Assembly (NCBI GenBank): GCA_964520225.1
Contig: CAZFNV010000001.1
Location: 72,210-136,209, forward strand
Origin: an uncultured Candidatus Saccharibacteria bacterium
GTDB taxonomy: Bacteria > Patescibacteriota > Minisyncoccia > Phycocordibacterales > UBA9973
Direction of reading: 5' to 3'
DNA length: 64,000 nucleotides
The notes beneath the pieces were generated by a model, which did not search any database, was not told the DNA's origin, and worked only from the letters and a program-made list of their open reading frames with translations. The translations under genes were made by a program, and so were the position numbers. This document shows positions 4,573 through 63,982 of the stretch, one piece after another. Position 1 is the stretch's first letter. The number at the start of each line of letters is the position of its first letter.

Positions 4573-5160
4573 ATGGCAAACATAAATCACAAACCATCCA
4601 AGTACATGCTGAATTTACTGCATGTTTTACCTCCATTCGTGGATGAAAAGAAAGGTGTAATAAATACAATCGTTGAGATAAACGCTGGTAGTATTAATAA
4701 GTACGAAACCATCACAGAATCTGGCCAGCTCAAGCTAGACCGAGTCGGATATTCTTCACTGGCATATCCGTTCGCATATGGTGCCATCCCGCAGACATGG
4801 GACTACGATGGCGATCCGCTAGATGTGGAGATAGTAAACGTCATCGAACCCCTCGTTCCGGGATGTCTGGTCGAGGCAAGAATAATCGGAGTCATGAAAT
4901 TCGAAGACAGTGGTGAAGTTGATGATAAAATAATTGCCGTACTCTCCGACGACAAGAGGAGTGACCATATTCAGTCTATTGAAGACTTAAGCGAACAGTT
5001 TAAAAAAGAAACAACCTACTTCTGGGAACATATCAAGTTTCTAAAGAAGCCAGGCACCGGTGTAACAAAAGGATTCTTTGATAAAAACGAAGCCCTAAGG
5101 GTTGTCAAAGAATGCGAGGAACGATACAAAGAACTCTATTCGCCCAAATTGAGTGAGTAG
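4573..5160 (+). CDS. ppa: Inorganic pyrophosphatase (family I)
   Basis: EINAGSINKYE...YPFAYGAIPQTWDYDGDPLDV motifs. The promoter is leaderless (TTGAAA-16-TATACT, then 6 nt to the ATG). Confidence 0.85.
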   Translation: MANINHKPSKYMLNLLHVLPPFVDEKKGVINTIVEINAGSINKYETITESGQLKLDRVGYSSLAYPFAYGAIPQTWDYDGDPLDVEIVNVIEPLVPGCLVEARIIGVMKFEDSGEVDDKIIAVLSDDKRSDHIQSIEDLSEQFKKETTYFWEHIKFLKKPGTGVTKGFFDKNEALRVVKECEERYKELYSPKLSE

Positions 5161-53362: not shown

Positions 53363-53445
53363 CCTTTCGGACCCCTTTTCGTCGTAATATATACATGTTA
53401 GCAGATAGATAAAAAAAGTCAACAGTGTTAAAATATAATCACCGG

Positions 53446-55914
53446 ATGAAAAGATACTTGTTAACAATTCCAATATTCGCGCTCGTGCTCTTTTTTGCTT
53501 TCTTTGGCGGAGTAAGCGATGCGGGGGCGCAGACGACAACATCCGCACCGAATGAAGTTGTGGGAACTTGCACGGTAACTTACTATGTAATCGTGGCTGG
53601 TGGTGGAATCTCAAAAATTGGCACACAAACACTACCTAATATGACAGTAAGTGAGTGCGACCTCTTTAAAGAACCGAGCAATGGCAGCATCCCGTCTGTG
53701 GTTGGTGCTAAATATACCACAGCGGTAAATGACCGCATACGCACTAAGCCTGGGGACGTAACACCTACTGGCATAGTGCCAACCAGCAACTCCGAAGATC
53801 CTAACGCCTTTCAAAACAGCATCAACGAGGGATGCCCTAGTATAATAAGAGGCACTCTAACTGGCTGTCTTTTAAAATTTATTTACTATTTTTACTTCCA
53901 ACTACCAACATTCATTTTGTATGTTGCGGCGTATGTTTTTAATATATTAATGTCGCTGGTGATACAAGACTCAATGTATCAGCATGATTTTATTAACAAC
54001 GCATGGAGCGTGGTACGAGATCTTTCAAATGTATTCTTTATATTGATACTACTTTATATCGGAATAAAAACTGTGCTTGGTATGGGCGGACATGAAACAA
54101 AAAAGGTTATTACATCAGTTGTGCTCATGGCGCTACTAATAAACTTTTCGATGTTCTTCACGCGTATTGTGATCGACTCGTCCAACATGCTGGCATTAAT
54201 ATTTTATCGTGAGTTAGACACTAAATATGAAACAGAAACTGGAGAAAAGGTGGAAAGGCCGTTCACATCTGTTACGCCAGGTAAAGAAAAGGACGCAGCG
54301 GGTGCATTATATTCAAAATTTGATGCCACGCGCTTAATGAGACAAGAGGTTGTAAGTCAGATTGGTGCAACTACCGTTAATAGCATACCTGTGCTGGGAA
54401 ATCTAGAAAGCTTTGGAATAAAGTTCGGGATCATTGTTGTTTCAGGAACCATCATGATAGTCGCGGCGTATGTGTTTTTTGTTTCGGGGATTTTCTTCCT
54501 AGGAAGGATTATTGACCTGTGGATACTGATGATCACTGCACCGTTTGCATTTATGTCTTACGCATTACCGAGCCTTGCGCACACAGAATACGGCTGGAGT
54601 AAGTGGACCGAGAAGCTAATTTCAGTAGCATTTATGGCCCCGGCGTTTATGTTTTTCTTGTATTTAATATTTTTAATACTTGGAACGAAAAATTTCTTTA
54701 GTGGCTTCATAGACCCTAGCAACACATCGTGGATTGGAATACTTATGGGGATATTCCTTCCCGCGGCAATAATTCTTGGCTTACTACTAAAAGCAAAAGA
54801 CTTAGCCAAAAAGGCTGGAGGACAATTTGGAGAGACCGTTATGTCGGGAGCTAAATTGGCGGGAGGTCTTGCGCTTGGCGCTACTGGCGCCGGAGTGGCA
54901 GCTTTGGGAACTAGATATGTTGGAGGCGCTGCAATGAAAACTCTCGCCGACAAAGGGTTACGAGAAAGGGCGCTGAGTGGAGACACTGCTGCTCAAAAAG
55001 AGATAGAGCGAGCGGGAAGAAATGTGAATAGAAGTTTCGACTTCCGCGACACCAAGCTAGGTAAATTTGTGGCCGATAAATCTGGTGTCAAATTTACTGA
55101 AGGAAGAATATCTTCCATGCTGGGTCTTGATACTCATGCATTTGAAGGCGGAATAGCCGGACAAATCAAGCATGCCAAAGAGCATGAGGAGAAAAATATA
55201 AAAGCATATATGCTGAGCGCGGGCGAAGCTAATGAGCAAGACACAAAGGCTGAGATTGCAAATAAGGAAATAGAAGAGAGGCAGAAACAATACAACAAGG
55301 AACTCAAGAAGGCAAGAGAGACAGACCCACTATTGGATGAAGATAAATTCAAAGAAGAATTTGTTAAAAACAACGGTAGCCTAGAGAAAGTGGCGACAGC
55401 GAAAGATATTAATGACGATATAAAGAGAAGATACTTTGCTCAGAAAGAAAGCCACCACGACGCAGAGGGATTAAAGGCGGCAATGAAAGATTTAGTAAAG
55501 GCATTAAAAACAACAGGTAAGGCGTCTGGGGCAGGTATGGCAGGATCAGCGGCAATGGGGGCTTATACCGGAGGCGCCGCTGGGGCTCTTGGTGCAGTAA
55601 CAGTAACTGGGGCTGTGCTTGGAACCGGTATACCGATAGCAGGTGGAATGTTCTTGAAAAAATTGAAAAATGTCTTGAAGAACGAAGGCGCTATACATGC
55701 CTACGGATTAGCAGAAGCAAAGAGACCGAAAAGCAATAAAGAGAAATTAGCGGAAGCAGTTAAAGAACTAGGACTTGATAATAAGAAAGAGAGTCATGGA
55801 GGCGGTGGTGGGCACGCACCGTCACATTCCGCACCGCCACACAAAGAAGAATCTCATGGTCCAACTGGAGGCGACCACGGCAGTGGAGGAGATCATGGTA
55901 ATGGCCATAACTAA
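53446..55914 (+). CDS. TrbL/VirB6-like polytopic membrane protein of the T4SS-like system, with a secreted N-terminal domain and a Gly/Ala/His-rich C-terminal tail
   Basis: Signal peptide followed by ~6-7 TM helices in the TrbL-like arrangement (FILYVAAYVFNIL..., LILLYIGIKTVLG, VVLMALLINFSMFF, IVVSGTIMIVAAYVFFVSGIFFLG, WILMITAPFAFMSYAL, FMAPAFMFFLYLIFLILG). The start is taken at the ATG at 53446; leaderless after TATAAT. Confidence 0.6.
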   Translation: MKRYLLTIPIFALVLFFAFFGGVSDAGAQTTTSAPNEVVGTCTVTYYVIVAGGGISKIGTQTLPNMTVSECDLFKEPSNGSIPSVVGAKYTTAVNDRIRTKPGDVTPTGIVPTSNSEDPNAFQNSINEGCPSIIRGTLTGCLLKFIYYFYFQLPTFILYVAAYVFNILMSLVIQDSMYQHDFINNAWSVVRDLSNVFFILILLYIGIKTVLGMGGHETKKVITSVVLMALLINFSMFFTRIVIDSSNMLALIFYRELDTKYETETGEKVERPFTSVTPGKEKDAAGALYSKFDATRLMRQEVVSQIGATTVNSIPVLGNLESFGIKFGIIVVSGTIMIVAAYVFFVSGIFFLGRIIDLWILMITAPFAFMSYALPSLAHTEYGWSKWTEKLISVAFMAPAFMFFLYLIFLILGTKNFFSGFIDPSNTSWIGILMGIFLPAAIILGLLLKAKDLAKKAGGQFGETVMSGAKLAGGLALGATGAGVAALGTRYVGGAAMKTLADKGLRERALSGDTAAQKEIERAGRNVNRSFDFRDTKLGKFVADKSGVKFTEGRISSMLGLDTHAFEGGIAGQIKHAKEHEEKNIKAYMLSAGEANEQDTKAEIANKEIEERQKQYNKELKKARETDPLLDEDKFKEEFVKNNGSLEKVATAKDINDDIKRRYFAQKESHHDAEGLKAAMKDLVKALKTTGKASGAGMAGSAAMGAYTGGAAGALGAVTVTGAVLGTGIPIAGGMFLKKLKNVLKNEGAIHAYGLAEAKRPKSNKEKLAEAVKELGLDNKKESHGGGGGHAPSHSAPPHKEESHGPTGGDHGSGGDHGNGHN

Positions 55915-55919
55915 AATAT

Positions 55920-56858
55920 ATGGATGAAAACAAAGAAAAAATTATAAAGGAAGGATTTAATAAACTCCCAGAGCGGATTCGGGAATTTATTCTGTCTGAA
56001 TTTTTCGAAACGTCTCTATTAGAGATAGAGCAGAAATATCAACTAAACCCAGAACAATCGAGCCTTTTAGAACAAGATACAACTTTTGTAGTTATGGGCT
56101 TACTTGGACCAGGAGATTATAGAACAGAATTGTCGCGCAACCTGAATTTTGACCAAGTCAAAATAGACCTAGTCGCAAAAGATGTGGAGCAGAAAATATT
56201 TTCTGCTCTAAATAAAGAGGCACTGGAAGTATCGAGCGAACCAACGCCCGATATGTCCGGCGCGCTGGATCCGCGGATACAAAAACTTCCCGAGGGAATA
56301 AAAAAGATTATTGAAGATTCGAAATATCAGTCTGCACTCTACGATGTGGCTCGCGCCCACAAGCTCAGCATCAGCCAGATGGGCACGCTTGAGCGCCTAA
56401 CCACCGACCTAATAACCGGCACCACCCGGCCTGAAGACTTCCAGAAAACCTTGGCGCGAAGTTTTGCTCTACCTCCAGAAGAAATAGCCAAGCTAGCTGA
56501 TGAAGTAAATAATAAAGTCTTCCGTAAAATTCGCGAGGGGCTAATGATAATGTCGGGTAGAAATCCATCAGAGATAGTAGAACAGCCAGTGGAGCTACCA
56601 GCTGAAGACAAGTCACTACTCAAAACTCACGGCATAGAGGTAGTAGATGAGGTGGCGCCAGAAGAGCCCGAGGTGCACCCGCTCATCGCCCAAAAACTTT
56701 CCGCCCCACTCCAAGTGCCGATAATCAAGACAGACCACAGCCCAACTCCGGCGCCAATAGCTACAACAGAGGCTAAATCTGCCCCAGCACCAGCCGCAAA
56801 ACCAGAATCTAAACCTTACGCCAAAGGCTCAGACCCATACAGGGAAATACCGGAATAA
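55920..56858 (+). CDS. Hypothetical cytoplasmic acidic protein with a Pro/Ala-rich C-terminus
   Basis: ORF only. Confidence 0.45.
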   Translation: MDENKEKIIKEGFNKLPERIREFILSEFFETSLLEIEQKYQLNPEQSSLLEQDTTFVVMGLLGPGDYRTELSRNLNFDQVKIDLVAKDVEQKIFSALNKEALEVSSEPTPDMSGALDPRIQKLPEGIKKIIEDSKYQSALYDVARAHKLSISQMGTLERLTTDLITGTTRPEDFQKTLARSFALPPEEIAKLADEVNNKVFRKIREGLMIMSGRNPSEIVEQPVELPAEDKSLLKTHGIEVVDEVAPEEPEVHPLIAQKLSAPLQVPIIKTDHSPTPAPIATTEAKSAPAPAAKPESKPYAKGSDPYREIPE

Positions 56859-56860
56859 TA

Positions 56861-56890
56861 GGCTCTAGGCATTAGGCCCTAGGCACTAGC
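56861..56890. repeat. Left arm of an imperfect ~30-bp inverted repeat built of GCCTA/TAGGC units (GGCTCTAGGCATTAGGCCCTAGGCACTAGC). The right arm is at 57241-57273.
   Basis: The right arm is ~75% identical to the reverse complement of the left arm. A related unit array lies inside rsmA at 48589-48625. Confidence 0.55.
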
Positions 56891-56899
56891 TATAAATAC

Positions 56900-57259
56900 A
56901 TGAAGACTTACCAAGACTTGATAGTTTGGAAGAAATCTATAGAGCTAGTAATCGCTATATATAGCCTTACGGATAAATTCCCAAGAGAAGAAATATTTGG
57001 CATAACTTCACAAATCCGCCGAGCAGCAGTATCAATACCTTCAAATATCGCTGAAGGTAAAATGCGTGGCGGAAATATAGAATTAAAAAGGTTTCTGCTG
57101 ATCGCTTTTGCTTCGGGCGCGGAACTCGAAACTCAGCTTATAATAGCTAGAAAATTACCTAAAATGGTAAATTTAGATTATAATAAAGTGGATCCTCTTT
57201 TAAATGAGGTTATGAGGATGTTAAATAAAATGATTACTCAGCTAGAGCCTAAAGCCTAG
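56900..57259 (+). CDS. Four-helix-bundle protein of the 23S rRNA intervening-sequence protein family
   Basis: YQDLIVWKKSIELVIAIYSLTDKFPREEIFGITSQIRRAAVSIPSNIAEG...ASGAELETQLIIARKL closely matches the family consensus as I remember it. Confidence 0.8.
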   Translation: MKTYQDLIVWKKSIELVIAIYSLTDKFPREEIFGITSQIRRAAVSIPSNIAEGKMRGGNIELKRFLLIAFASGAELETQLIIARKLPKMVNLDYNKVDPLLNEVMRMLNKMITQLEPKA

Positions 57260-57273
57260 TTGCCTAGCGCCTA
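57241..57273. repeat. Right arm of the inverted repeat flanking the four-helix-bundle ORF (GCTAGAGCCTAAAGCCTAGTTGCCTAGCGCCTA)
   Basis: Seen in sequence. Confidence 0.55.
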
Positions 57274-57276
57274 CTC

Positions 57277-57696
57277 ATGCAATTTAAAGTTCCACAATTT
57301 TTGGATATAGAAGATAAAATTTTCGGACCATTTACTTTCCGAGAATTTGTATACCTCGCTGGTGGGGCAGGGCTGTGTTTCGTACTTTACCGCTTGCTCG
57401 GGCTATATGGTGGAGCAATACCAATAATAATCATAGCCGGATTTTCTTTAGCCTTAGCATTTTACAAACCCAACAATAAGCCATTTATAGAAATGCTACA
57501 AGCAGGGAGTAAATATATGCTACAGAGCAAGTTGTACATATGGCAGAGGAGACAAGAAGAGAGGAAAAGGCCACGCATAGAGAACACCGCCAACACCAGC
57601 ACGGAAGGTCGTAACCCCAGACTAACTGGAAGCAAGCTCCGCGACCTAGCCTGGAGCCTAGATGTATTAGATATGGAACAACATAAACACAGCTAA
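57277..57696 (+). CDS. PrgI-like (VirB3-like) small membrane protein of the T4SS-like system
   Basis: N-terminal VPQFLDIEDKIFGPFTFREFVYL followed by two TM segments; it lies immediately upstream of VirB4. Confidence 0.5.
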   Translation: MQFKVPQFLDIEDKIFGPFTFREFVYLAGGAGLCFVLYRLLGLYGGAIPIIIIAGFSLALAFYKPNNKPFIEMLQAGSKYMLQSKLYIWQRRQEERKRPRIENTANTSTEGRNPRLTGSKLRDLAWSLDVLDMEQHKHS

Positions 57697-57701
57697 TAAA
57701 C

Positions 57702-58340
57702 ATGGCCTTAAGCGCAAAGAGAACTCAAGAGTTTGTGCCTATCCGCGAAATCCGTGACGGTATCGTGGTCTTGAAAGATGACAGCCTGCGTGCACTAGTA
57801 CTCGCGAACTCAGTCAATCTATCTTTAAAATCTGCTGATGAGCAAAAAGCCACGATCCTCCAATTCCAAAACTTTCTAAACACTCTGGACTTTCCGGTTC
57901 AGATATCTGTGCAATCCAGGCGCCTCGACATAGGTCCATACTTGATGCTACTCGAAAACCGACTCAAGGTGCAGACCGAGCCTCTACTCAAACTTCAGAC
58001 CAAAGAATACATCGAATTTATAAAGAATTTCACCGAGTCGGTAAGCATAATGACAAAGAGCTTTTTTATAGTGGTACCCTATACTCATGTAAACATACCA
58101 AAACCAAGCGGTGGAATGTTCAGCTTCTTCTCACGACCTAGTGCTGACGAAAAACGCATGAACGAGAAAGCTGAGTTTGAAGAGAAACGTTCCCAGCTTG
58201 AGCAAAGAGTGGGCGTAATACAAAGCGGGCTCGGTAGATGTGGAATAAAGTCTGTCCAGCTAGGCACTGAAGAGGTGATAGAAGTGTTTTACAAAGTTTT
58301 CAACCCGGGACAGACAGAAGGGCATATTAAGTTGGAGTAG
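57702..58340 (+). CDS. VirB4/PrgJ-like ATPase, N-terminal domain fragment (the gene is split; continues at 58376)
   Basis: EFVPIREIRDGIVVLKDDSLRALVLANSVNLSLKSADEQKATILQFQNFLNTLDFPVQI matches the VirB4 N-domain pattern. Confidence 0.6.
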   Translation: MALSAKRTQEFVPIREIRDGIVVLKDDSLRALVLANSVNLSLKSADEQKATILQFQNFLNTLDFPVQISVQSRRLDIGPYLMLLENRLKVQTEPLLKLQTKEYIEFIKNFTESVSIMTKSFFIVVPYTHVNIPKPSGGMFSFFSRPSADEKRMNEKAEFEEKRSQLEQRVGVIQSGLGRCGIKSVQLGTEEVIEVFYKVFNPGQTEGHIKLE

Positions 58341-58375
58341 TAGATAGCGTGCTAGTATATATCTAAACAAAAACG

Positions 58376-60214
58376 ATGGGGATACTTGATAAAATTTTAG
58401 GAAGAAAGCCAATAGACGACACATTAAATGCGTCCACTTTAGCCGTTCTGCCGGAAGAAATATATGAATCGGCGAATCTCGAGCTTCAAGACGTCATAGC
58501 TCCCTCTGCGCTGAAAATTGATTCGAAATCCATCAACCTGGGGGACAAAATAGCCCGCACATTTTTCATAATTTCTTATCCTAGATTCCTAACCGACAAC
58601 TGGTTCTCGCCAGTTATTAACTTGGATAAGGTTTTTGATATCTCCATATTCATCCACCCTATAGACACCTCACTGGTATTGCGACAATTCCAGAAAAAAG
58701 TGGCCGAGGTGCAAAGTCAGATCAATGTTCGAGAGGCGAAAGGAATGGTACGCGACCCAATGCTCGACACGGCATATCAGGATCTCGAAAGTCTGCGCGA
58801 CAACTTAATTCAGGCCCAAGAAAAAATGTTCGATGTGGGTGTGTATATCACCATATACGCAGACAGCGAGCTAGAATTATTCAAAATCGAGACAGAGATC
58901 AAGTCTATGCTCGAAGCTAAACTTATCTATATAAAACCAGCCCTTTTCCAGCAAGAAGACGGCTTCAAGAGTGTGATGCCTACCAACACTGACATTTTAA
59001 ACATCAACCAGAAACTTAATTCTGAACCTTTGTCTAGTATATTTCCATTTGTATCTTTCGACCTCACTTCTGACAAAGGAATACTCTACGGGGTAAATAG
59101 ACACAACTCTAGTTTGGTCATATTCGACCGTTTTTCATTAGAAAATTACAACTCTATTATTTTTGCCAAGTCCGGCTCTGGTAAATCATATACTACAAAG
59201 TTAGAAATACTGCGCAGTCTAATGTTCGATATTGATGTCATGGTGATAGACCCAGAACGCGAATACGAATTCCTGTCCGAAGCTGTGGGTGGGAGGTATT
59301 TCAACATCTCTATTTCATCAGATCACCATATGAATCCTTTCGACCTGCCGATACCTCGCGAAGACGAAACAGCAGAGGACGTGCTCCGCTCTAATATCAT
59401 TAGCCTAGTCGGTCTCTTTCGCATAATGCTCGGAGGGCTAACACCAGAGGAAGACTCTATGATAGACCGCGCCATCTCAGAAACATACGCGATGAAGGAC
59501 ATCACTCCTGATTCAGATTTCCGCAACATAGAACCGCCCCTGCTTTCCGACTTTGAAATGGTGCTCGGGGGTATGGAGGGAAGTGAATCTTTGCTCTCGC
59601 GTCTGACTAAATACACGCGTGGTTCTTGGGCAACATTCCTCAACCGACCGTCCAATGTGGATATTGATAAAAAATTCGTAGTGTTCTCAATCCGCGACAT
59701 GGAAGACGAGCTCAAACCGGTAGCTATGTATATCATCATGCACTACATCTGGAACGCTGTCCGTAAAAACCTGAAGAAGCGCCTCTTGGTGGTGGATGAG
59801 GCTTGGTGGATGATGAAGTCGGAGGACACGGCATCTTTCCTATACTCCATAGCTAAACGCGGAAGAAAATATTATCTAGGCCTGGCCACTATTACTCAAG
59901 ATGCGGCTGACTTTATGAACTCTCCATACGGGGTACCGATAATTACCAACTCTTCCATCCAAATATTACTGAAGCAGTCAGCAACGACCATTGATGTACT
60001 CCAGAGAACCTTCAACCTTACAGATGAAGAAAAATATCTATTATTGGAATCAAACGTAGGAGAGGGTATATTCTTCGCCGGCACTAAACACGTAGCAATA
60101 AAGATGATCGCTTCCTACACCGAAGACCAGATAATAACCTCCGACCCATCCCAAATACTATCTACTCGTAAAGCAAAAGAAGAACACGAGGAAGTAGAAA
60201 TGAACTCCAGGTAG
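58376..60214 (+). CDS. VirB4/TrbE-like T4SS ATPase, C-terminal ATPase part
   Basis: Walker A AKSGSGKS, Walker B LLVVDEAWWMM and the TITQDAADF region. Confidence 0.75.
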   Translation: MGILDKILGRKPIDDTLNASTLAVLPEEIYESANLELQDVIAPSALKIDSKSINLGDKIARTFFIISYPRFLTDNWFSPVINLDKVFDISIFIHPIDTSLVLRQFQKKVAEVQSQINVREAKGMVRDPMLDTAYQDLESLRDNLIQAQEKMFDVGVYITIYADSELELFKIETEIKSMLEAKLIYIKPALFQQEDGFKSVMPTNTDILNINQKLNSEPLSSIFPFVSFDLTSDKGILYGVNRHNSSLVIFDRFSLENYNSIIFAKSGSGKSYTTKLEILRSLMFDIDVMVIDPEREYEFLSEAVGGRYFNISISSDHHMNPFDLPIPREDETAEDVLRSNIISLVGLFRIMLGGLTPEEDSMIDRAISETYAMKDITPDSDFRNIEPPLLSDFEMVLGGMEGSESLLSRLTKYTRGSWATFLNRPSNVDIDKKFVVFSIRDMEDELKPVAMYIIMHYIWNAVRKNLKKRLLVVDEAWWMMKSEDTASFLYSIAKRGRKYYLGLATITQDAADFMNSPYGVPIITNSSIQILLKQSATTIDVLQRTFNLTDEEKYLLLESNVGEGIFFAGTKHVAIKMIASYTEDQIITSDPSQILSTRKAKEEHEEVEMNSR

Positions 60215-60250
60215 CTATATGCTATACTTAAATGGTGTATCTGGGTAGTT

Positions 60251-61255
60251 ATGAATATAGATTATTCTAAATCTTTCGTGCTAAAAATTTTCTTTATGCT
60301 CGTGGCCTTCGGAGGCTCGTATATGTTGAGCGGTTTTTATACGCACGCACAAATCGTAAGTGATGTTTATATAGCTACGATACCAGAAAATCCAGAGCCA
60401 GGAGAAGATGTAACGGTACAAGTAAGTAGTTACACTATCAATGTGGACGGCACACTGATAACCTGGTATGAAAATGGTAAACGAGTTTCCTCGGGGATTG
60501 GACTTAAGTCTCACTCAATGAAGGCTCCAGACTCAGGCAAAGAAACAACCGTTGTAGCAAGACTAGAGACGCTGGAAGATAGTGTTGATGTGTCAGTGGT
60601 AATTCGTCCTTCAGTGATGGTAATACTATGGGAAACTAGTGATTCATATGTGCCCCCTTTCTATAAAGGCAAGGCATTGCTGACTGCAGACAGCGCCGTG
60701 AAGATAGTGGCGATGCCAGAGATAGGCCAAGGAAGCACGCGAGTTAACCCGAAAAATATGGTTTACTCTTGGCGCAAGGATTATAGTAACGACCAGGAAG
60801 CCTCTGGCTATGGTAAAAATTATTTTATTTACACTAGCGACTATCTAGACCCATCGAGCTTCATAGAGGTATCAGCAACCACGGTGGCTGGAGATAAAAC
60901 ATCTTCTGGGGGGACAAATATAGGTACCTACCAACCAAAAGTTCTGTTTTATAAAGTTGATGAAGCACTAGGCACACTCTTTGAAAATGCACTAAAAAGT
61001 GGACACAGAATTGTAAATAAGGAAGTTGTGTTTGTGGCCCCGTATTTTATTTCACCGAGAGACTTGAGAATTCCGAGACTCGACTGGTCTTGGTATATTA
61101 ATGATTCCAGGATAATAAACGAGAACATCCAGCCAAACATCATCCCTCTACAAGTAGAGAGTGGTGTGTCCGGGATGTCTAAACTTAGAATTTTAATAGA
61201 GCACAGAGATAAATTAACCCAAACAGCAAATGGTGAAATACAGTTTGAATTCTAA
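60251..61255 (+). CDS. Secreted or membrane-anchored hypothetical protein
   Basis: N-terminal hydrophobic segment FVLKIFFMLVAFGGSYMLSGF. Confidence 0.45.
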   Translation: MNIDYSKSFVLKIFFMLVAFGGSYMLSGFYTHAQIVSDVYIATIPENPEPGEDVTVQVSSYTINVDGTLITWYENGKRVSSGIGLKSHSMKAPDSGKETTVVARLETLEDSVDVSVVIRPSVMVILWETSDSYVPPFYKGKALLTADSAVKIVAMPEIGQGSTRVNPKNMVYSWRKDYSNDQEASGYGKNYFIYTSDYLDPSSFIEVSATTVAGDKTSSGGTNIGTYQPKVLFYKVDEALGTLFENALKSGHRIVNKEVVFVAPYFISPRDLRIPRLDWSWYINDSRIINENIQPNIIPLQVESGVSGMSKLRILIEHRDKLTQTANGEIQFEF

Positions 61256-61256
61256 A

Positions 61257-62138
61257 ATGCGAAAATATATTTTATACATACTAATACTAGCAACATTTGT
61301 TGGGATATTCGGCCCAGTGGCGCGCATAGAAGCGCAAGGGGGGACAAGTGAGCCTTATAAACTACTTGCACCACTACCTTGTTCTAAGGACACACCGGGA
61401 TGCGAAAGCGGAAAACTGACAACATTTAACCCCACAAATGAAAATGGTTCTGCTTTAGGTAGCTATCTAAACCTTATAGTTCAGCTAGTTATAGGGATAT
61501 CCGCAATACTAGCTGTGGTTATGATAGTAATGGGAGGTATAGAATATATGGGTAGCGAGCTTATATCCAGTAAGGAGGCGGGAAAAGACAGGATTAAGGA
61601 CGCACTACTCGGGCTCTTGATAGCCCTCGGTGCATACGCACTATTGAACACAATCAACCCGAGTTTATTGAAAAGTAATATAAATATTCCTGATGCAAAG
61701 GTTACAGTAGTGGTAGACGATAGCGTGCCCCAGACACCAGTGGGCGGAAAATATAAAAACGGCATAGCGGAAAATACCCCCCTGACAGGCACTCCGACAC
61801 CATTACCACCAGGGGTTACTCTTAACGCAGCACAATGTACTTTCGTTGGACAGCGAGGATGCACGTCTACTATTGGCCTCAATATGAGTCAGGTGCAAGC
61901 AATACAGCGAGGATGTAATTGTAATATTGTTATAACTGGTGGTACAGAGTGGTGGCTACACGGAGGACAATCTGGCAGCACAACACACCAAAATGGTAGT
62001 TCAACTGTAGACTTAAGACCAAACCCTCAATTAAACGCATATCTCAGTGGGGGAAAACCTTTAGTACTAAACTCTCGATATCCTCCACCAAATGGACCTT
62101 ATTATTGGGAAGGAGATCATTGGCACATTGGCAGGTAA
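61257..62138 (+). CDS. Pilin-like (VirB2/TrbC-like) protein: a signal peptide, two hydrophobic helices and a Cys-containing C-terminal extension
   Basis: MRKYILYILILATFVGIFGPVARIEAQ signal, followed by LNLIVQLVIGISAILAVVMIVMGGIEY and ALLGLLIALGAYALL. The start is taken at the ATG at 61257. Confidence 0.45.
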   Translation: MRKYILYILILATFVGIFGPVARIEAQGGTSEPYKLLAPLPCSKDTPGCESGKLTTFNPTNENGSALGSYLNLIVQLVIGISAILAVVMIVMGGIEYMGSELISSKEAGKDRIKDALLGLLIALGAYALLNTINPSLLKSNINIPDAKVTVVVDDSVPQTPVGGKYKNGIAENTPLTGTPTPLPPGVTLNAAQCTFVGQRGCTSTIGLNMSQVQAIQRGCNCNIVITGGTEWWLHGGQSGSTTHQNGSSTVDLRPNPQLNAYLSGGKPLVLNSRYPPPNGPYYWEGDHWHIGR

Positions 62139-62148
62139 TTAAATTTTT

Positions 62149-63468
62149 ATGTCGCAAAGAAACTTTACACTTTTCATAATAACTCTCATCTTGGTAGTAG
62201 CCGGTATTTTTGGATTTTTATATTTTTATCAAGGTCAGAACCAGCAGCCAGGGGAGGGTGGTGGTACAAATTTCTTGTCTAGATTCAACCCTTTCGGTCA
62301 AAGTAACCCCGTAACCCCGACCCCAGAAGAGCCTATAGACATATCCGAACCAGAAACTCCGACTCTGGAAGTGCCACAACTACCAAGCAAGCTCACCCAG
62401 ATATCATCTGTGCCGGTGGCAGGTTATGAGATACTGATGCGAGAACGCCTGAAAGAGATGGTAGAAGTAGCGCCGAGTGAAGCCACACCCGCAACGTCCT
62501 CAACCTCAAAACCAGTAGCGCCTGCTACTGAATTAGTAACCAGCACACGTTATGTAGACCGAGCATCTGGCAATATTTATCAAACTTTCCTAGATCAAGT
62601 AGCTGAGAGACGATTCTCCACTACCACCATACCGAAGGTGTATGAGGCATATTTTGGCAATAAAAACTCTTCCGTAATACTGCGCTATTTAAAGACTGAC
62701 AACAAGACAATCCAGACATTCCAGGGCGCTGTGCCTAAGGAAATACTGGGCGCGGATGCAATGGAAAACGAGCTCACAGGCACCTTCCTACCAGAGGGAA
62801 TTACTGAAATGAGTATTTCGCCAGATGGAAGCAAGATGTTTTATTTGGTTAACGTTGGCGATGTAAGCGTCGGAACAACTTTAAACTTTGCGGACAATAA
62901 AAAAACGCAGATATTTGATTCGCCATTTACTGAATGGTTAGTACAATGGCCAAGCACTAATTTAATCACCCTCAATACTAAACCTTCAGCGTTTATAGAG
63001 GGCCATATGTATTCCTTAAATCCAACAAGTAAAAGCTTTAGTAGAACCCTGGGGGGCGTACTAGGGCTCACGACCCTCACTAGCCCGAGTGGTAAATCGG
63101 TGCTTTATGGCGACAGTAGCTTGTCTTTGAATATTTTAAGTATAGACAAAAACACCAGAACCCCAGCGGGCGTCCGAACACTACCAGAGAAGTGTGTGTG
63201 GGGTAGCGACAGCATAACCCTATACTGCGCTGTGCCAGTATTTCTAGAAGTAGGGCAGTACCCTGACAGCTGGTATCAAGGTGAAGTTTCATTCGCAGAT
63301 CAAATATGGAAAATAGACACAGTAAATGGGACCACTGATCTTATAATAGATACAACTCTGGACGGGAAAAACATAGATGCTATTAAGCTCGCACTAGATA
63401 AAGACAATAAATATATATTGTTTGTAAACAAAAAAGACTCTATGCTCTGGAAGCTGGATTTGGAATAG
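62149..63468 (+). CDS. Membrane-anchored hypothetical protein (439 aa) with a beta-rich ectodomain
   Basis: TM segment FTLFIITLILVVAGIFGFLYFY. Confidence 0.45.
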   Translation: MSQRNFTLFIITLILVVAGIFGFLYFYQGQNQQPGEGGGTNFLSRFNPFGQSNPVTPTPEEPIDISEPETPTLEVPQLPSKLTQISSVPVAGYEILMRERLKEMVEVAPSEATPATSSTSKPVAPATELVTSTRYVDRASGNIYQTFLDQVAERRFSTTTIPKVYEAYFGNKNSSVILRYLKTDNKTIQTFQGAVPKEILGADAMENELTGTFLPEGITEMSISPDGSKMFYLVNVGDVSVGTTLNFADNKKTQIFDSPFTEWLVQWPSTNLITLNTKPSAFIEGHMYSLNPTSKSFSRTLGGVLGLTTLTSPSGKSVLYGDSSLSLNILSIDKNTRTPAGVRTLPEKCVWGSDSITLYCAVPVFLEVGQYPDSWYQGEVSFADQIWKIDTVNGTTDLIIDTTLDGKNIDAIKLALDKDNKYILFVNKKDSMLWKLDLE

Positions 63469-63490: not shown

Positions 63491-63982
63491 TTATAGCTTT
63501 AAGCTATCGCCAATGTATTTAATAACCACCCGCCTAGTATTTCCTGCGCCTATGGACTCAGTTTCTAGATCTGGGGCGTCAGCTATAAATTCATGTATGA
63601 TCCTGCGCTCAAAAGCGGACATAGGGTCTACCTCAATATTTGATTTGAAATAGCGAGCTCGCTCAGACATCATATGAGCCACTGCACGGACACTATCGAT
63701 GCGCCTTTTTTGAAAATCATTTACGTCCACCAAAACACTTGCGCCAGGAAGCTCGCCCGGGGCAGGGGTTTCTGATTCTTTGGATTCAATAATCCTGCGA
63801 ACCAAGTGATTCAAGGCGTGGAGAGCCTCACCCTCGCGGGCAGTAAAGTGGTGTGGCTCGCTCACTTCAAGAGAAAATATAACACCGGAGTTTTTCTCCT
63901 CTATGGCCTCGATTTTATTCACTAAAATAGTGGTCTTTTCTACTAATTCTTTTATTAGATTTTCTATATCTTGTTTTTTCAT
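63491..63982 (-). CDS. jag: Jag/KhpB-like RNA-binding protein (KH plus R3H)
   Basis: ERRIIHEFIADAPDLETESIGAGNTRRVVIKY R3H motif. Confidence 0.7.
   Translation of the reverse strand: MKKQDIENLIKELVEKTTILVNKIEAIEEKNSGVIFSLEVSEPHHFTAREGEALHALNHLVRRIIESKESETPAPGELPGASVLVDVNDFQKRRIDSVRAVAHMMSERARYFKSNIEVDPMSAFERRIIHEFIADAPDLETESIGAGNTRRVVIKYIGDSLKL

What the first reader, a model, noticed from the sequence alone, without database searches (positions are those of the whole stretch)
57702..60214. VirB4 ATPase split into a separate N-domain ORF and an ATPase ORF
The VirB4 N-terminal domain (57702-58340, 212 aa) ends at a stop codon. The Walker-A/B ATPase part restarts 35 nt later at an ATG (58376), and stops occur in all frames between them. 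This is either a genuine two-subunit arrangement, a recent inactivation, or a sequencing or assembly error in a key component.
Basis: seen in the sequence. Interest (0 to 1): 0.5.

Follow-up and report, generated by a model that had tools for sequence, protein, structure and literature searches.

The report
Conserved two-gene VirB4 (TrsD-like plus ATPase)
The split of the type IV secretion ATPase VirB4 into a small N-terminal gene and a large ATPase gene is real, but it is the normal, conserved and already published arrangement in Patescibacteria (a TrsD-like gene next to virB4), not damage or a sequencing error.

Summary
ORF1 (57702-58340, 212 aa) ends in TAG TAG. ORF2 (58376-60214, 612 aa) starts 35 nt later in another frame, and stops lie in all three frames between them. 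ORF1 is a VirB4 N-terminal subdomain: its AlphaFold model (pLDDT 91) hits only R388 TrwK/VirB4 chains in the PDB. ORF2 matches the CD1110-type VirB4 profile from position 181 of 752 onward. A rare single-chain relative (797 aa) is colinear with ORF1 followed by ORF2.

The split is not an error or a recent inactivation:
- All 120 closest ORF1 homologues are 211-222 aa.
- 149 of the 150 best 50%-cluster representatives are stand-alone proteins.
- In 80 species-representative Patescibacteria genomes, 78 carry the two genes separately on one strand and none is fused. Relative frames, stop codons and spacers all vary.
- In one genome another gene sits between the two.
- Both genes are under purifying selection.

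Staphylococcal plasmid pSK41 has the same order (TrsC-like, TrsD, TrsE) and the same split point. Quinonero-Coronel et al. 2025 already reported TrsD homologues next to virB4 across Patescibacteria, and one is essential in S. epibionticum. Verdict: genuine and functional, already known, low interest.

The parts
57277..57696 (+). PrgI-family (VirB3-like) small membrane protein, 139 aa, directly upstream of the split VirB4
   Evidence: Pfam PF12666 PrgI, E 1.3e-9, 38.9 bits against a cutoff of 27. A homologue was found in 78 of 80 related loci. pSK41 has a small ORF (135 aa) in the same position upstream of trsD; it had no NCBIfam match, and calling it TrsC-like rests on the pGO1/pSK41 naming, not on a test here.
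57702..58340 (+). TrsD-like protein, a free-standing N-terminal subdomain of VirB4 (212 aa; precomputed Pfam PF26593 'TraC-like')
   Evidence: NCBIfam hits fall on the N-terminal parts of VirB4 profiles and weakly on TrsD. All 120 closest homologues are 211-222 aa. The AF2 model has pLDDT 91, and the top 14 Foldseek PDB hits are all TrwK/VirB4. It aligns to residues 1-213 of the fused relative P0362. hhalign against pSK41 TrsD is full-length colinear, E 1.4e-4.
58341..58375 (.). 35-nt intercistronic spacer with stop codons in all three frames
   Evidence: In relatives the spacer runs from overlapping to ~120 nt, median 6 nt.
58376..60214 (+). VirB4-type ATPase body (612 aa) lacking the first ~180 residues of full-length VirB4
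   Evidence: NF045971 at 365.9 bits (cutoff 325), profile 181-734 of 752, plus Pfam P-loop_TraG, AAA_10 and DUF87. Walker A and B are present. The N-terminus is in register with pSK41 TrsE, residue 39 against 36. An ATG aligned to residue 1 occurs in 56 of 56 relatives whose alignment reaches residue 1.
53425..55914 (+). Conserved 829-aa neighbour of the cluster (multiple hydrophobic segments, Gly/His-rich tail). A VirB6-like channel subunit is a candidate only; this was not tested.
   Evidence: No Pfam hit. A homologue is present in 58 of 80 related loci, and an 834-aa protein sits in the same place in Nomurabacteria loci.
61230..62138 (+). Protein with a T4SS-pilin-like (VirB2-like) N-terminal segment, 302 aa
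   Evidence: Pfam T4SS_pilin E 2.1e-5, 25.0 bits, just below the 26.6 cutoff; TrbC/VirB2 is weak. A homologue is present in 58 of 80 loci.

Best explanation
This is a chromosomal Patescibacteria (Paceibacteria/Nomurabacteria-like) type IV secretion gene cluster of the monoderm MPF-FATA kind. In it the VirB4 motor is encoded by two adjacent cistrons. The first is a ~212-aa TrsD-like protein that corresponds to the first N-terminal subdomain of single-chain VirB4. The second is a 612-aa protein that carries the rest of the N-terminal half plus the Walker A/B ATPase domain.

Shown here:
- The two products are colinear with single-chain VirB4.
- The split is conserved and under purifying selection.
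- The split sits at the same place as the TrsD|TrsE boundary of pSK41.

Inferred, not shown: the two proteins are co-translated from one operon and reassemble non-covalently into a VirB4-like unit. The TrsD-like piece would then dock the ATPase hexamer to the PrgI/VirB3-like membrane protein encoded just upstream.
For: - Complementary profile coverage. ORF1 covers CD1110 2-102 and VirB4_plasma 102-233. ORF2 covers CD1110 181-734 and VirB4_plasma 285-893.
- Fused relative P0362 (797 aa). Its residues 1-213 align to ORF1 (37% identity) and 230-796 to ORF2 residues 37-602 (54% identity). P0362 matches TIGR00929 VirB4 as one stretch, 17-750 against 18-725.
- Fold. pLDDT 91. The 14 best PDB matches are all TrwK/VirB4 at probability 0.99-1.00 and TM-score (query-normalised) 0.38-0.57; the next hit drops to probability 0.21.
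- Conservation. At least 7840 homologues, and the top 120 are all 211-222 aa. There are 2113 cluster representatives at E<=1e-3, and 149 of the best 150 are stand-alone. At least 590 GTDB species genomes encode a relative. In the best 80, 78 are split on one strand (74 adjacent), 0 are fused, relative frames 0/1/2 number 18/39/21, and the stop codons are TAA/TAG/TGA.
- A four-helix-bundle gene lies between the two cistrons in L053.
- dN/dS is about 0.14 for ORF1 and 0.07 for ORF2 in the few unsaturated pairs.
- Same gene order and same split register in pSK41, TrsC-like/TrsD/TrsE.
- Literature. TrsD homologues are the most abundant T4SS component in Patescibacteria, with 1664 of 2272 next to virB4, and one is essential in S. 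epibionticum ML1 (PMC12102498). The T4SS is essential there (PMC10633639).
Against: - No experiment or complex model shows that the two products bind each other or PrgI.
- Sequence similarity to staphylococcal TrsD is weak. NF041427 scores 16 bits against a cutoff of 200, and hhalign probability is 53%.
- Sequence similarity to TrwK's N-terminus is not significant. The Foldseek output gives no residue ranges, so the N-terminal placement on TrwK rests on profile coordinates and on the fused relative.
- No Shine-Dalgarno-like motif is obvious upstream of either ORF in this window.
Confidence: 0.92

Rival explanations
1. Recent inactivation: a formerly single virB4 gene was broken by a nonsense or frameshift mutation in this genome and is decaying.
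For: Only the bare fact of a stop codon and a frame change between two parts of one protein family.
Against: The same two-gene layout occurs in 78 of 80 species-level relatives at 54-77% (ORF1) and 63-90% (ORF2) identity, with intact ORFs of constant length (203-222 aa) and varied frames. dN/dS is well below 1. An ATG aligned to ORF2 residue 1 occurs in 56 of 56 relatives whose alignment reaches residue 1. A TrsD homologue is essential in S. epibionticum.
Confidence: 0.01
2. Sequencing or assembly error created an artificial stop or frameshift in a single gene.
For: The source is a metagenome-assembled genome. Read-level data could not be inspected here.
Against: An identical sequence was recovered in a separate Logan assembly of SRR15237813, although that may rest on the same reads. 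There are five stops across all three frames within 29 nt. Hundreds of independent assemblies from different samples and assemblers show the same split.
Confidence: 0.01
3. ORF1 is an independent accessory protein that only shares an ancient fold with the VirB4 N-terminus. It would be a paralogue with its own role, for example as a regulator or substrate adaptor, and would not be a structural piece of the VirB4 unit.
For: [quoted passage not shown] Some homologues carry C-terminal extensions up to ~440 aa. In Gracilibacteria, TrsD homologues are mostly not next to virB4. In L065 and L082 the ATPase is not directly downstream.
Against: ORF2 lacks exactly the segment that ORF1 supplies: its profile coverage starts at 181 of 752. 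A single-chain relative joins the two with a ~16-residue linker. The adjacency is tight, with a median spacer of 6 nt.
Confidence: 0.06

Closest known systems
TrsD-like / VirB4 gene pair of Patescibacteria T4SS clusters (Quinonero-Coronel et al. 2025, Microb Genom, PMC12102498; the S. epibionticum ML1 T4SS of Wang et al. 2023)
   Same: Same phylum-level group and a chromosomal, origin-proximal cluster. The layout is a PrgI/VirB3-like gene, then a TrsD-like gene, then virB4, with a pilin-like gene nearby. There is no relaxase in the immediate cluster. The homologues found here are the same proteins: Nomurabacteria, Paceibacteria and 'Saccharibacteria'-labelled MAGs.
   Different: Nothing essential. 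This report adds three points: the ATPase gene lacks the segment TrsD supplies, the split is in register with pSK41 TrsD|TrsE, and rare fused forms exist.
TrsD/TraD + TrsE/TraE of staphylococcal conjugative plasmids pSK41/pGO1 (MPF-FATA, pGO1 subclass)
   Same: Gene order: a small upstream ORF, then a ~220-aa protein, then a ~650-aa DUF87/VirB4 ATPase. Both ATPases begin at CD1110 profile position ~181-183. ORF2 residue 39 aligns to TrsE residue 36. The ORF1 profile aligns along the whole length of TrsD.
   Different: Sequence identity is very low (17% for TrsD, 24% for TrsE). ORF1 does not reach the NF041427 cutoff. pSK41 is a conjugative plasmid with a relaxase and a coupling protein, whereas this is a chromosomal cluster beside housekeeping genes.
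Single-chain VirB4 (R388 TrwK; CD1110-family and PrgJ-type Gram-positive VirB4)
   Same: Same fold for the N-terminal piece, the same ATPase core and motifs, and colinear domain order.
   Different: Here the first ~200 residues are a separate polypeptide.
VirB3-VirB4 fusions in some conjugative systems
   Same: They are another example of variable covalent linkage among the VirB3 / VirB4-N-terminus / VirB4 ATPase modules that contact each other at the membrane.
   Different: That is the opposite event, fusion rather than fission. No VirB3-VirB4 fusions were found in Patescibacteria.

Membership tests
VirB4 family ATPase, CD1110 subfamily NF045971 (ORF2) | Whole-protein HMM score above the curated cutoff | tested here: met
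   365.9 bits against a cutoff of 325, E 4e-109
VirB4 family ATPase (ORF2) | Walker A and Walker B nucleotide-binding motifs intact | tested here: met
   AKSGSGKS at ~264-271 and LLVVDE at 470-475 in the translation. The Pfam P-loop_TraG match has E 4.6e-27.
VirB4 family ATPase (ORF2) | Full-length architecture, including the first ~180 N-terminal residues | tested here: not met
   Profile coverage begins at 181 of 752 (CD1110), 285 of 894 (VirB4_plasma), 243 of 800 (TraC) and 269 of 792 (TIGR00929). The missing part is encoded by ORF1.
VirB4 N-terminal subdomain fold (ORF1) | Structural similarity to the N-terminal part of a solved VirB4 | tested here: met
   The AF2 model has pLDDT 91. The 14 best PDB hits are all TrwK/VirB4 at probability 0.99-1.0 and TM-score (query-normalised) 0.38-0.57. 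Residue ranges are not reported. The N-terminal placement is supported, and non-significantly.
TrsD/TraD family, NCBIfam NF041427 (ORF1) | HMM score above the curated cutoff | tested here: not met
   16.1 bits against a cutoff of 200, E 0.0074. pSK41 TrsD itself scores 227.6 bits. ORF1 is therefore TrsD-like and not a member of this narrow subfamily.
TrsD-like proteins in the broad sense used in PMC12102498 (ORF1) | Remote homology to TrsD over its full length | tested here: inconclusive
   hhalign of the A1 profile against pSK41 TrsD gives E 1.4e-4 and probability 53%, with 167 columns aligned, 14-201 against 40-217. The fused relative P0362 hits NF041427 at E 8.5e-8.
TrsD-like proteins in the broad sense (ORF1) | A ~200-230-aa protein encoded between a VirB3-like gene and a VirB4 gene | tested here: met
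   Window; pSK41; 74 of 80 relatives are adjacent.
Pfam PF26593 TraC-like (ORF1) | Match to the Pfam model | tested here: inconclusive
   Precomputed annotations list PF26593 for ORF1 itself and for all 120 top homologues. The local Pfam scan returned no family at E<=0.01, possibly because the model is absent from that copy.
Conjugative (DNA-transfer) T4SS | Relaxase and coupling protein associated with the cluster | not tested
   None was seen among the ORFs scanned between 41130 and 63982, but the whole window was not searched. The literature reports that most Patescibacteria clusters lack them.

The most novel reading that the evidence does not exclude
The identical split register in Patescibacteria and in pGO1/pSK41-type Gram-positive plasmids could be a shared derived character. 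If so, it would mark the specific MPF-FATA sublineage from which the Patescibacteria T4SS descends. The free N-terminal subdomain might also be exploited as a separately regulated assembly adaptor between PrgI/VirB3 and the ATPase. That would fit the variants with C-terminal extensions and the unlinked copies in Gracilibacteria. The alternative is that the split is a neutral fission at a domain boundary that arose more than once.
Probability: 0.3. Interest if true: 0.3.

Novelty: already known. Interest (0 to 1): 0.12.

Why it matters
It matters mainly for annotation. The 212-aa gene should be labelled a TrsD-like VirB4 N-terminal subunit and not 'hypothetical'. The 612-aa gene should not be flagged as a truncated or pseudogenised virB4. 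The Patescibacteria T4SS is of real biological interest because it is essential for epibiotic growth in S. epibionticum. The split itself is a documented, phylum-wide feature and does not open a new question.

Tried and rejected
- The local Pfam scan of ORF1 gave no family at E<=0.01, although precomputed annotations list PF26593.
- A sequence search of the PDB with the ORF1 profile found nothing meaningful; the only hit was a ketoacyl-ACP reductase at E 0.7.
- hhalign of the ORF1 profile against R388 TrwK was not significant (E 0.044, probability 1%). It did place ORF1 on TrwK residues 13-139.
- The first search for related loci attempt, with the diverse alignment A1, failed for lack of a conserved stretch. 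The closer alignment A2 worked.
- The main text of Guglielmini et al. 2014 does not mention TrsD. The statement that TrsD resembles the VirB4 N-terminus is therefore cited only from PMC12102498.
- Programmed frameshift or readthrough producing a fused protein in this window was considered and rejected. ORF2's frame has a TAA at 58364, downstream of ORF1's stop; ORF1's frame has three stops; and the relative frame varies among relatives.
- An alternative genetic code (UGA or UAG reassignment) was considered and rejected. ORF1 homologues end in TAA in 59 of 80 relatives.
- dN/dS was only weakly informative because most pairs are saturated at synonymous sites.

Full report
**Observation.**
The window has ORF1 at 57702-58340 (+, 212 aa, ATG start, ending TAG TAG). 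ORF2 is at 58376-60214 (+, 612 aa, ATG start), 35 nt downstream and in a different frame. Stops lie in all three frames between them: 58338, 58341 and 58353 in the ORF1 frame, 58345 in the third frame, and 58364 in the ORF2 frame. No single indel or single ribosomal frameshift could join the two ORFs.

**What the two products are.**
- ORF2 passes the curated cutoff of the CD1110 VirB4 family (365.9 bits against 325). The match covers only profile positions 181-734 of 752.
- The same N-terminal deficit shows against VirB4_plasma (from 285 of 894), F-type TraC (from 243 of 800) and TIGR00929 (from 269 of 792).
- ORF2 carries Pfam P-loop_TraG, AAA_10 and DUF87 domains. Walker A (AKSGSGKS) and Walker B (LLVVDE) are intact.
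- ORF1 matches the N-terminal parts of VirB4 profiles: VirB4_plasma 102-233 at E 2.7e-8, and CD1110 2-102 weakly. It also matches the TrsD/TraD family weakly.
- An AlphaFold2 model of ORF1, built from 54 diverse homologues, is confident (pLDDT 91, pTM 0.80).
- Its 14 best Foldseek matches in the PDB are all TrwK/VirB4 chains of the R388 T4SS, at probability 0.99-1.00 and TM-score (query-normalised) 0.38-0.57. The next hit falls to probability 0.21.
- A rare single-chain relative, P0362 (797 aa), comes from a Patescibacteria MAG. It has PrgI upstream and jag-yidC-rnpA-dnaA downstream.
- P0362 aligns to ORF1 over residues 1-213 (37% identity) and to ORF2 residues 37-602 over residues 230-796 (54% identity).
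- P0362 matches the TIGR00929 VirB4 profile as one stretch, 17-750 against 18-725.
- ORF1 plus ORF2 is therefore colinear with a whole VirB4.
- The cut lies at about residue 180-230 of a full-length protein. That is inside the region usually called the N-terminal domain, not at its boundary with the ATPase domain. ORF2 residues ~37-250 still precede the P-loop.

**Is the split real and maintained?**
- All 120 closest ORF1 homologues (73-82% identity, from NCBI, JGI, ENA and Logan assemblies) are 211-222 aa. At least 7840 homologues were scored.
- All 120 closest ORF2 homologues are 593-636 aa.
- An exhaustive search of 1.84 billion 50%-identity cluster representatives found 2113 hits at E<=1e-3. 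Of the best 150, 149 are stand-alone proteins of 114-443 aa and one is the fused P0362.
- Independent assemblies of Nomurabacteria genomes show the same order: PrgI, a 212-aa gene, a ~600-aa ATPase, then conserved downstream genes and jag/yidC on the other strand.
- A scan of GTDB species-representative genomes found at least 590 genomes encoding a relative.
- In the best 80 loci, 78 carry the ATPase gene downstream on the same strand as a separate ORF. Of these, 74 are adjacent and 4 have 430-500 nt in between. None is fused.
- The relative frame of the two ORFs is 0, 1 or 2 in 18, 39 and 21 loci. ORF1 stops are TAA, TAG or TGA in 59, 17 and 4 loci. The spacer runs from a 14-nt overlap to ~120 nt, with a median of 6 nt.
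- An ATG aligns with ORF2 residue 1 in 56 of 56 loci whose alignment reaches residue 1.
- In L053 a four-helix-bundle gene lies between the two cistrons, so they are separable genes.
- In the few gene pairs not saturated at synonymous sites, dN/dS is about 0.14 for ORF1 and 0.07 for ORF2.
- Together these results exclude a recent inactivation and an assembly artefact.

**Comparison with what is known.**
- Staphylococcal plasmid pSK41 encodes a 135-aa ORF, trsD (227 aa) and a 672-aa DUF87 ATPase (TrsE) in the same order.
- TrsE begins at CD1110 profile position 183, against 181 for ORF2. ORF2 residue 39 aligns with TrsE residue 36.
- The ORF1 family profile aligns along the whole length of TrsD (E 1.4e-4, probability 53%). 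The split point is therefore the same.
- ORF1 does not reach the cutoff of the narrow NCBIfam TrsD subfamily, so I call it TrsD-like.
- Quinonero-Coronel et al. 2025 (PMC12102498) reported that TrsD was the most abundant T4SS component recovered from Patescibacteria. [quoted passage not shown]
- They found 2272 homologues, 1664 of them next to virB4. The homologue in S. epibionticum ML1 is listed as essential.
- Wang et al. 2023 (PMC10633639) showed that this T4SS is essential for epibiotic growth and lacks a recognisable relaxase and coupling protein.
- The finding is therefore already described.

**Mechanism.**
- Shown: two colinear, conserved, selected cistrons. Their tight adjacency in most relatives is consistent with co-transcription, which was not tested.
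- Inferred: the products reassemble into a VirB4-like unit. The TrsD-like piece, encoded right after the PrgI/VirB3-like membrane protein, would link the ATPase to that membrane subunit.
- The model for this is the covalently attached N-terminal domain of TrwK, which contacts VirB3 and VirB8 tails in the R388 inner-membrane complex.
- The main residual rival (about 6%) is that ORF1 is an accessory paralogue with a role of its own. No interaction data exist.

**Context.**
The cluster (about 53425-63468) lies in a chromosome beside housekeeping genes: a UvrD-type helicase, a polyprenyl synthase, a UbiA-family prenyltransferase and a KsgA-type rRNA dimethylase. It is next to jag and yidC. This agrees with the origin-proximal location reported for Patescibacteria T4SS.

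**Verdict.**
The 'genuine two-subunit arrangement' reading is supported, and the error and pseudogene readings are refuted. Novelty: already known. Interest: low.

Noticed in passing
window 56900-57259 (+); L053 1569-1904; L072 3665-3970: A 119-aa four-helix-bundle gene of the '23S rRNA intervening sequence protein' family (TIGR02436, distantly Avd-like) sits inside the T4SS operon between the 312-aa gene and PrgI. Homologues occur in 12 of 80 related loci at different positions. In L053 it lies between the trsD-like gene and virB4, and in L072 between PrgI and the trsD-like gene. This suggests a small gene that inserts repeatedly into intergenic sites of this operon.
   Followed up: partly
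L007 544-2937 (GCA_964615945.1, contig CAZTUR010000004.1): A rare single-chain version (P0362, 797 aa) joins the TrsD-like part to the ATPase by a ~16-residue linker and lacks the ~36-residue N-terminal leader of ORF2. It is the only fused form among the 150 best cluster representatives. Whether it is a true secondary fusion or an assembly error in that MAG was not checked.
   Followed up: partly
related loci, e.g. L070, L020, L024, L046, L064, L015 (around 4636-4665): In 18 of 78 relatives the two ORFs are in the same frame. In several of these, only one stop codon plus one or two codons separates them, so stop-codon readthrough could in principle yield some fused protein. This is not so in the window.
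   Followed up: no
window 63491-63982 (-) and beyond the window end; L001 7271-8120; L007 3432-6665: The T4SS cluster abuts jag (R3H) and yidC on the opposite strand. In L007 the series continues rnpA, rpmH, dnaA, dnaN, so the cluster is probably origin-proximal here too, as the literature reports for Patescibacteria.
   Followed up: partly
window 53425-55914 (+): This 829-aa protein has many hydrophobic segments and a Gly/His-rich C-terminal tail (...HGGGGGHAPSHSAPPHKEESHGPTGGDHGSGGDHGNGHN). It has no Pfam hit but is conserved next to the cluster in 58 of 80 loci. It is a possible VirB6-like channel subunit.
   Followed up: no
window 61230-62138 (+), overlapping the end of 60251-61255 by 26 nt: This 302-aa protein has residues ~76-142 resembling T4SS/VirB2 pilins (just under the Pfam cutoff). 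They are followed by a ~160-residue Cys-containing C-terminal extension, which is unusually long for a pilin.
   Followed up: no
homologues P0275, P0282, P0290, P0293, P0326, P0366, P0388: Some stand-alone TrsD-like proteins are 330-443 aa, with the TrsD-like domain at the N-terminus and an uncharacterised C-terminal extension.
   Followed up: no
window 57702-58340: Annotation discrepancy: the precomputed Pfam annotation lists PF26593 (TraC-like) for this protein and all its close homologues, but the local Pfam-A scan returned nothing at E<=0.01.
   Followed up: no
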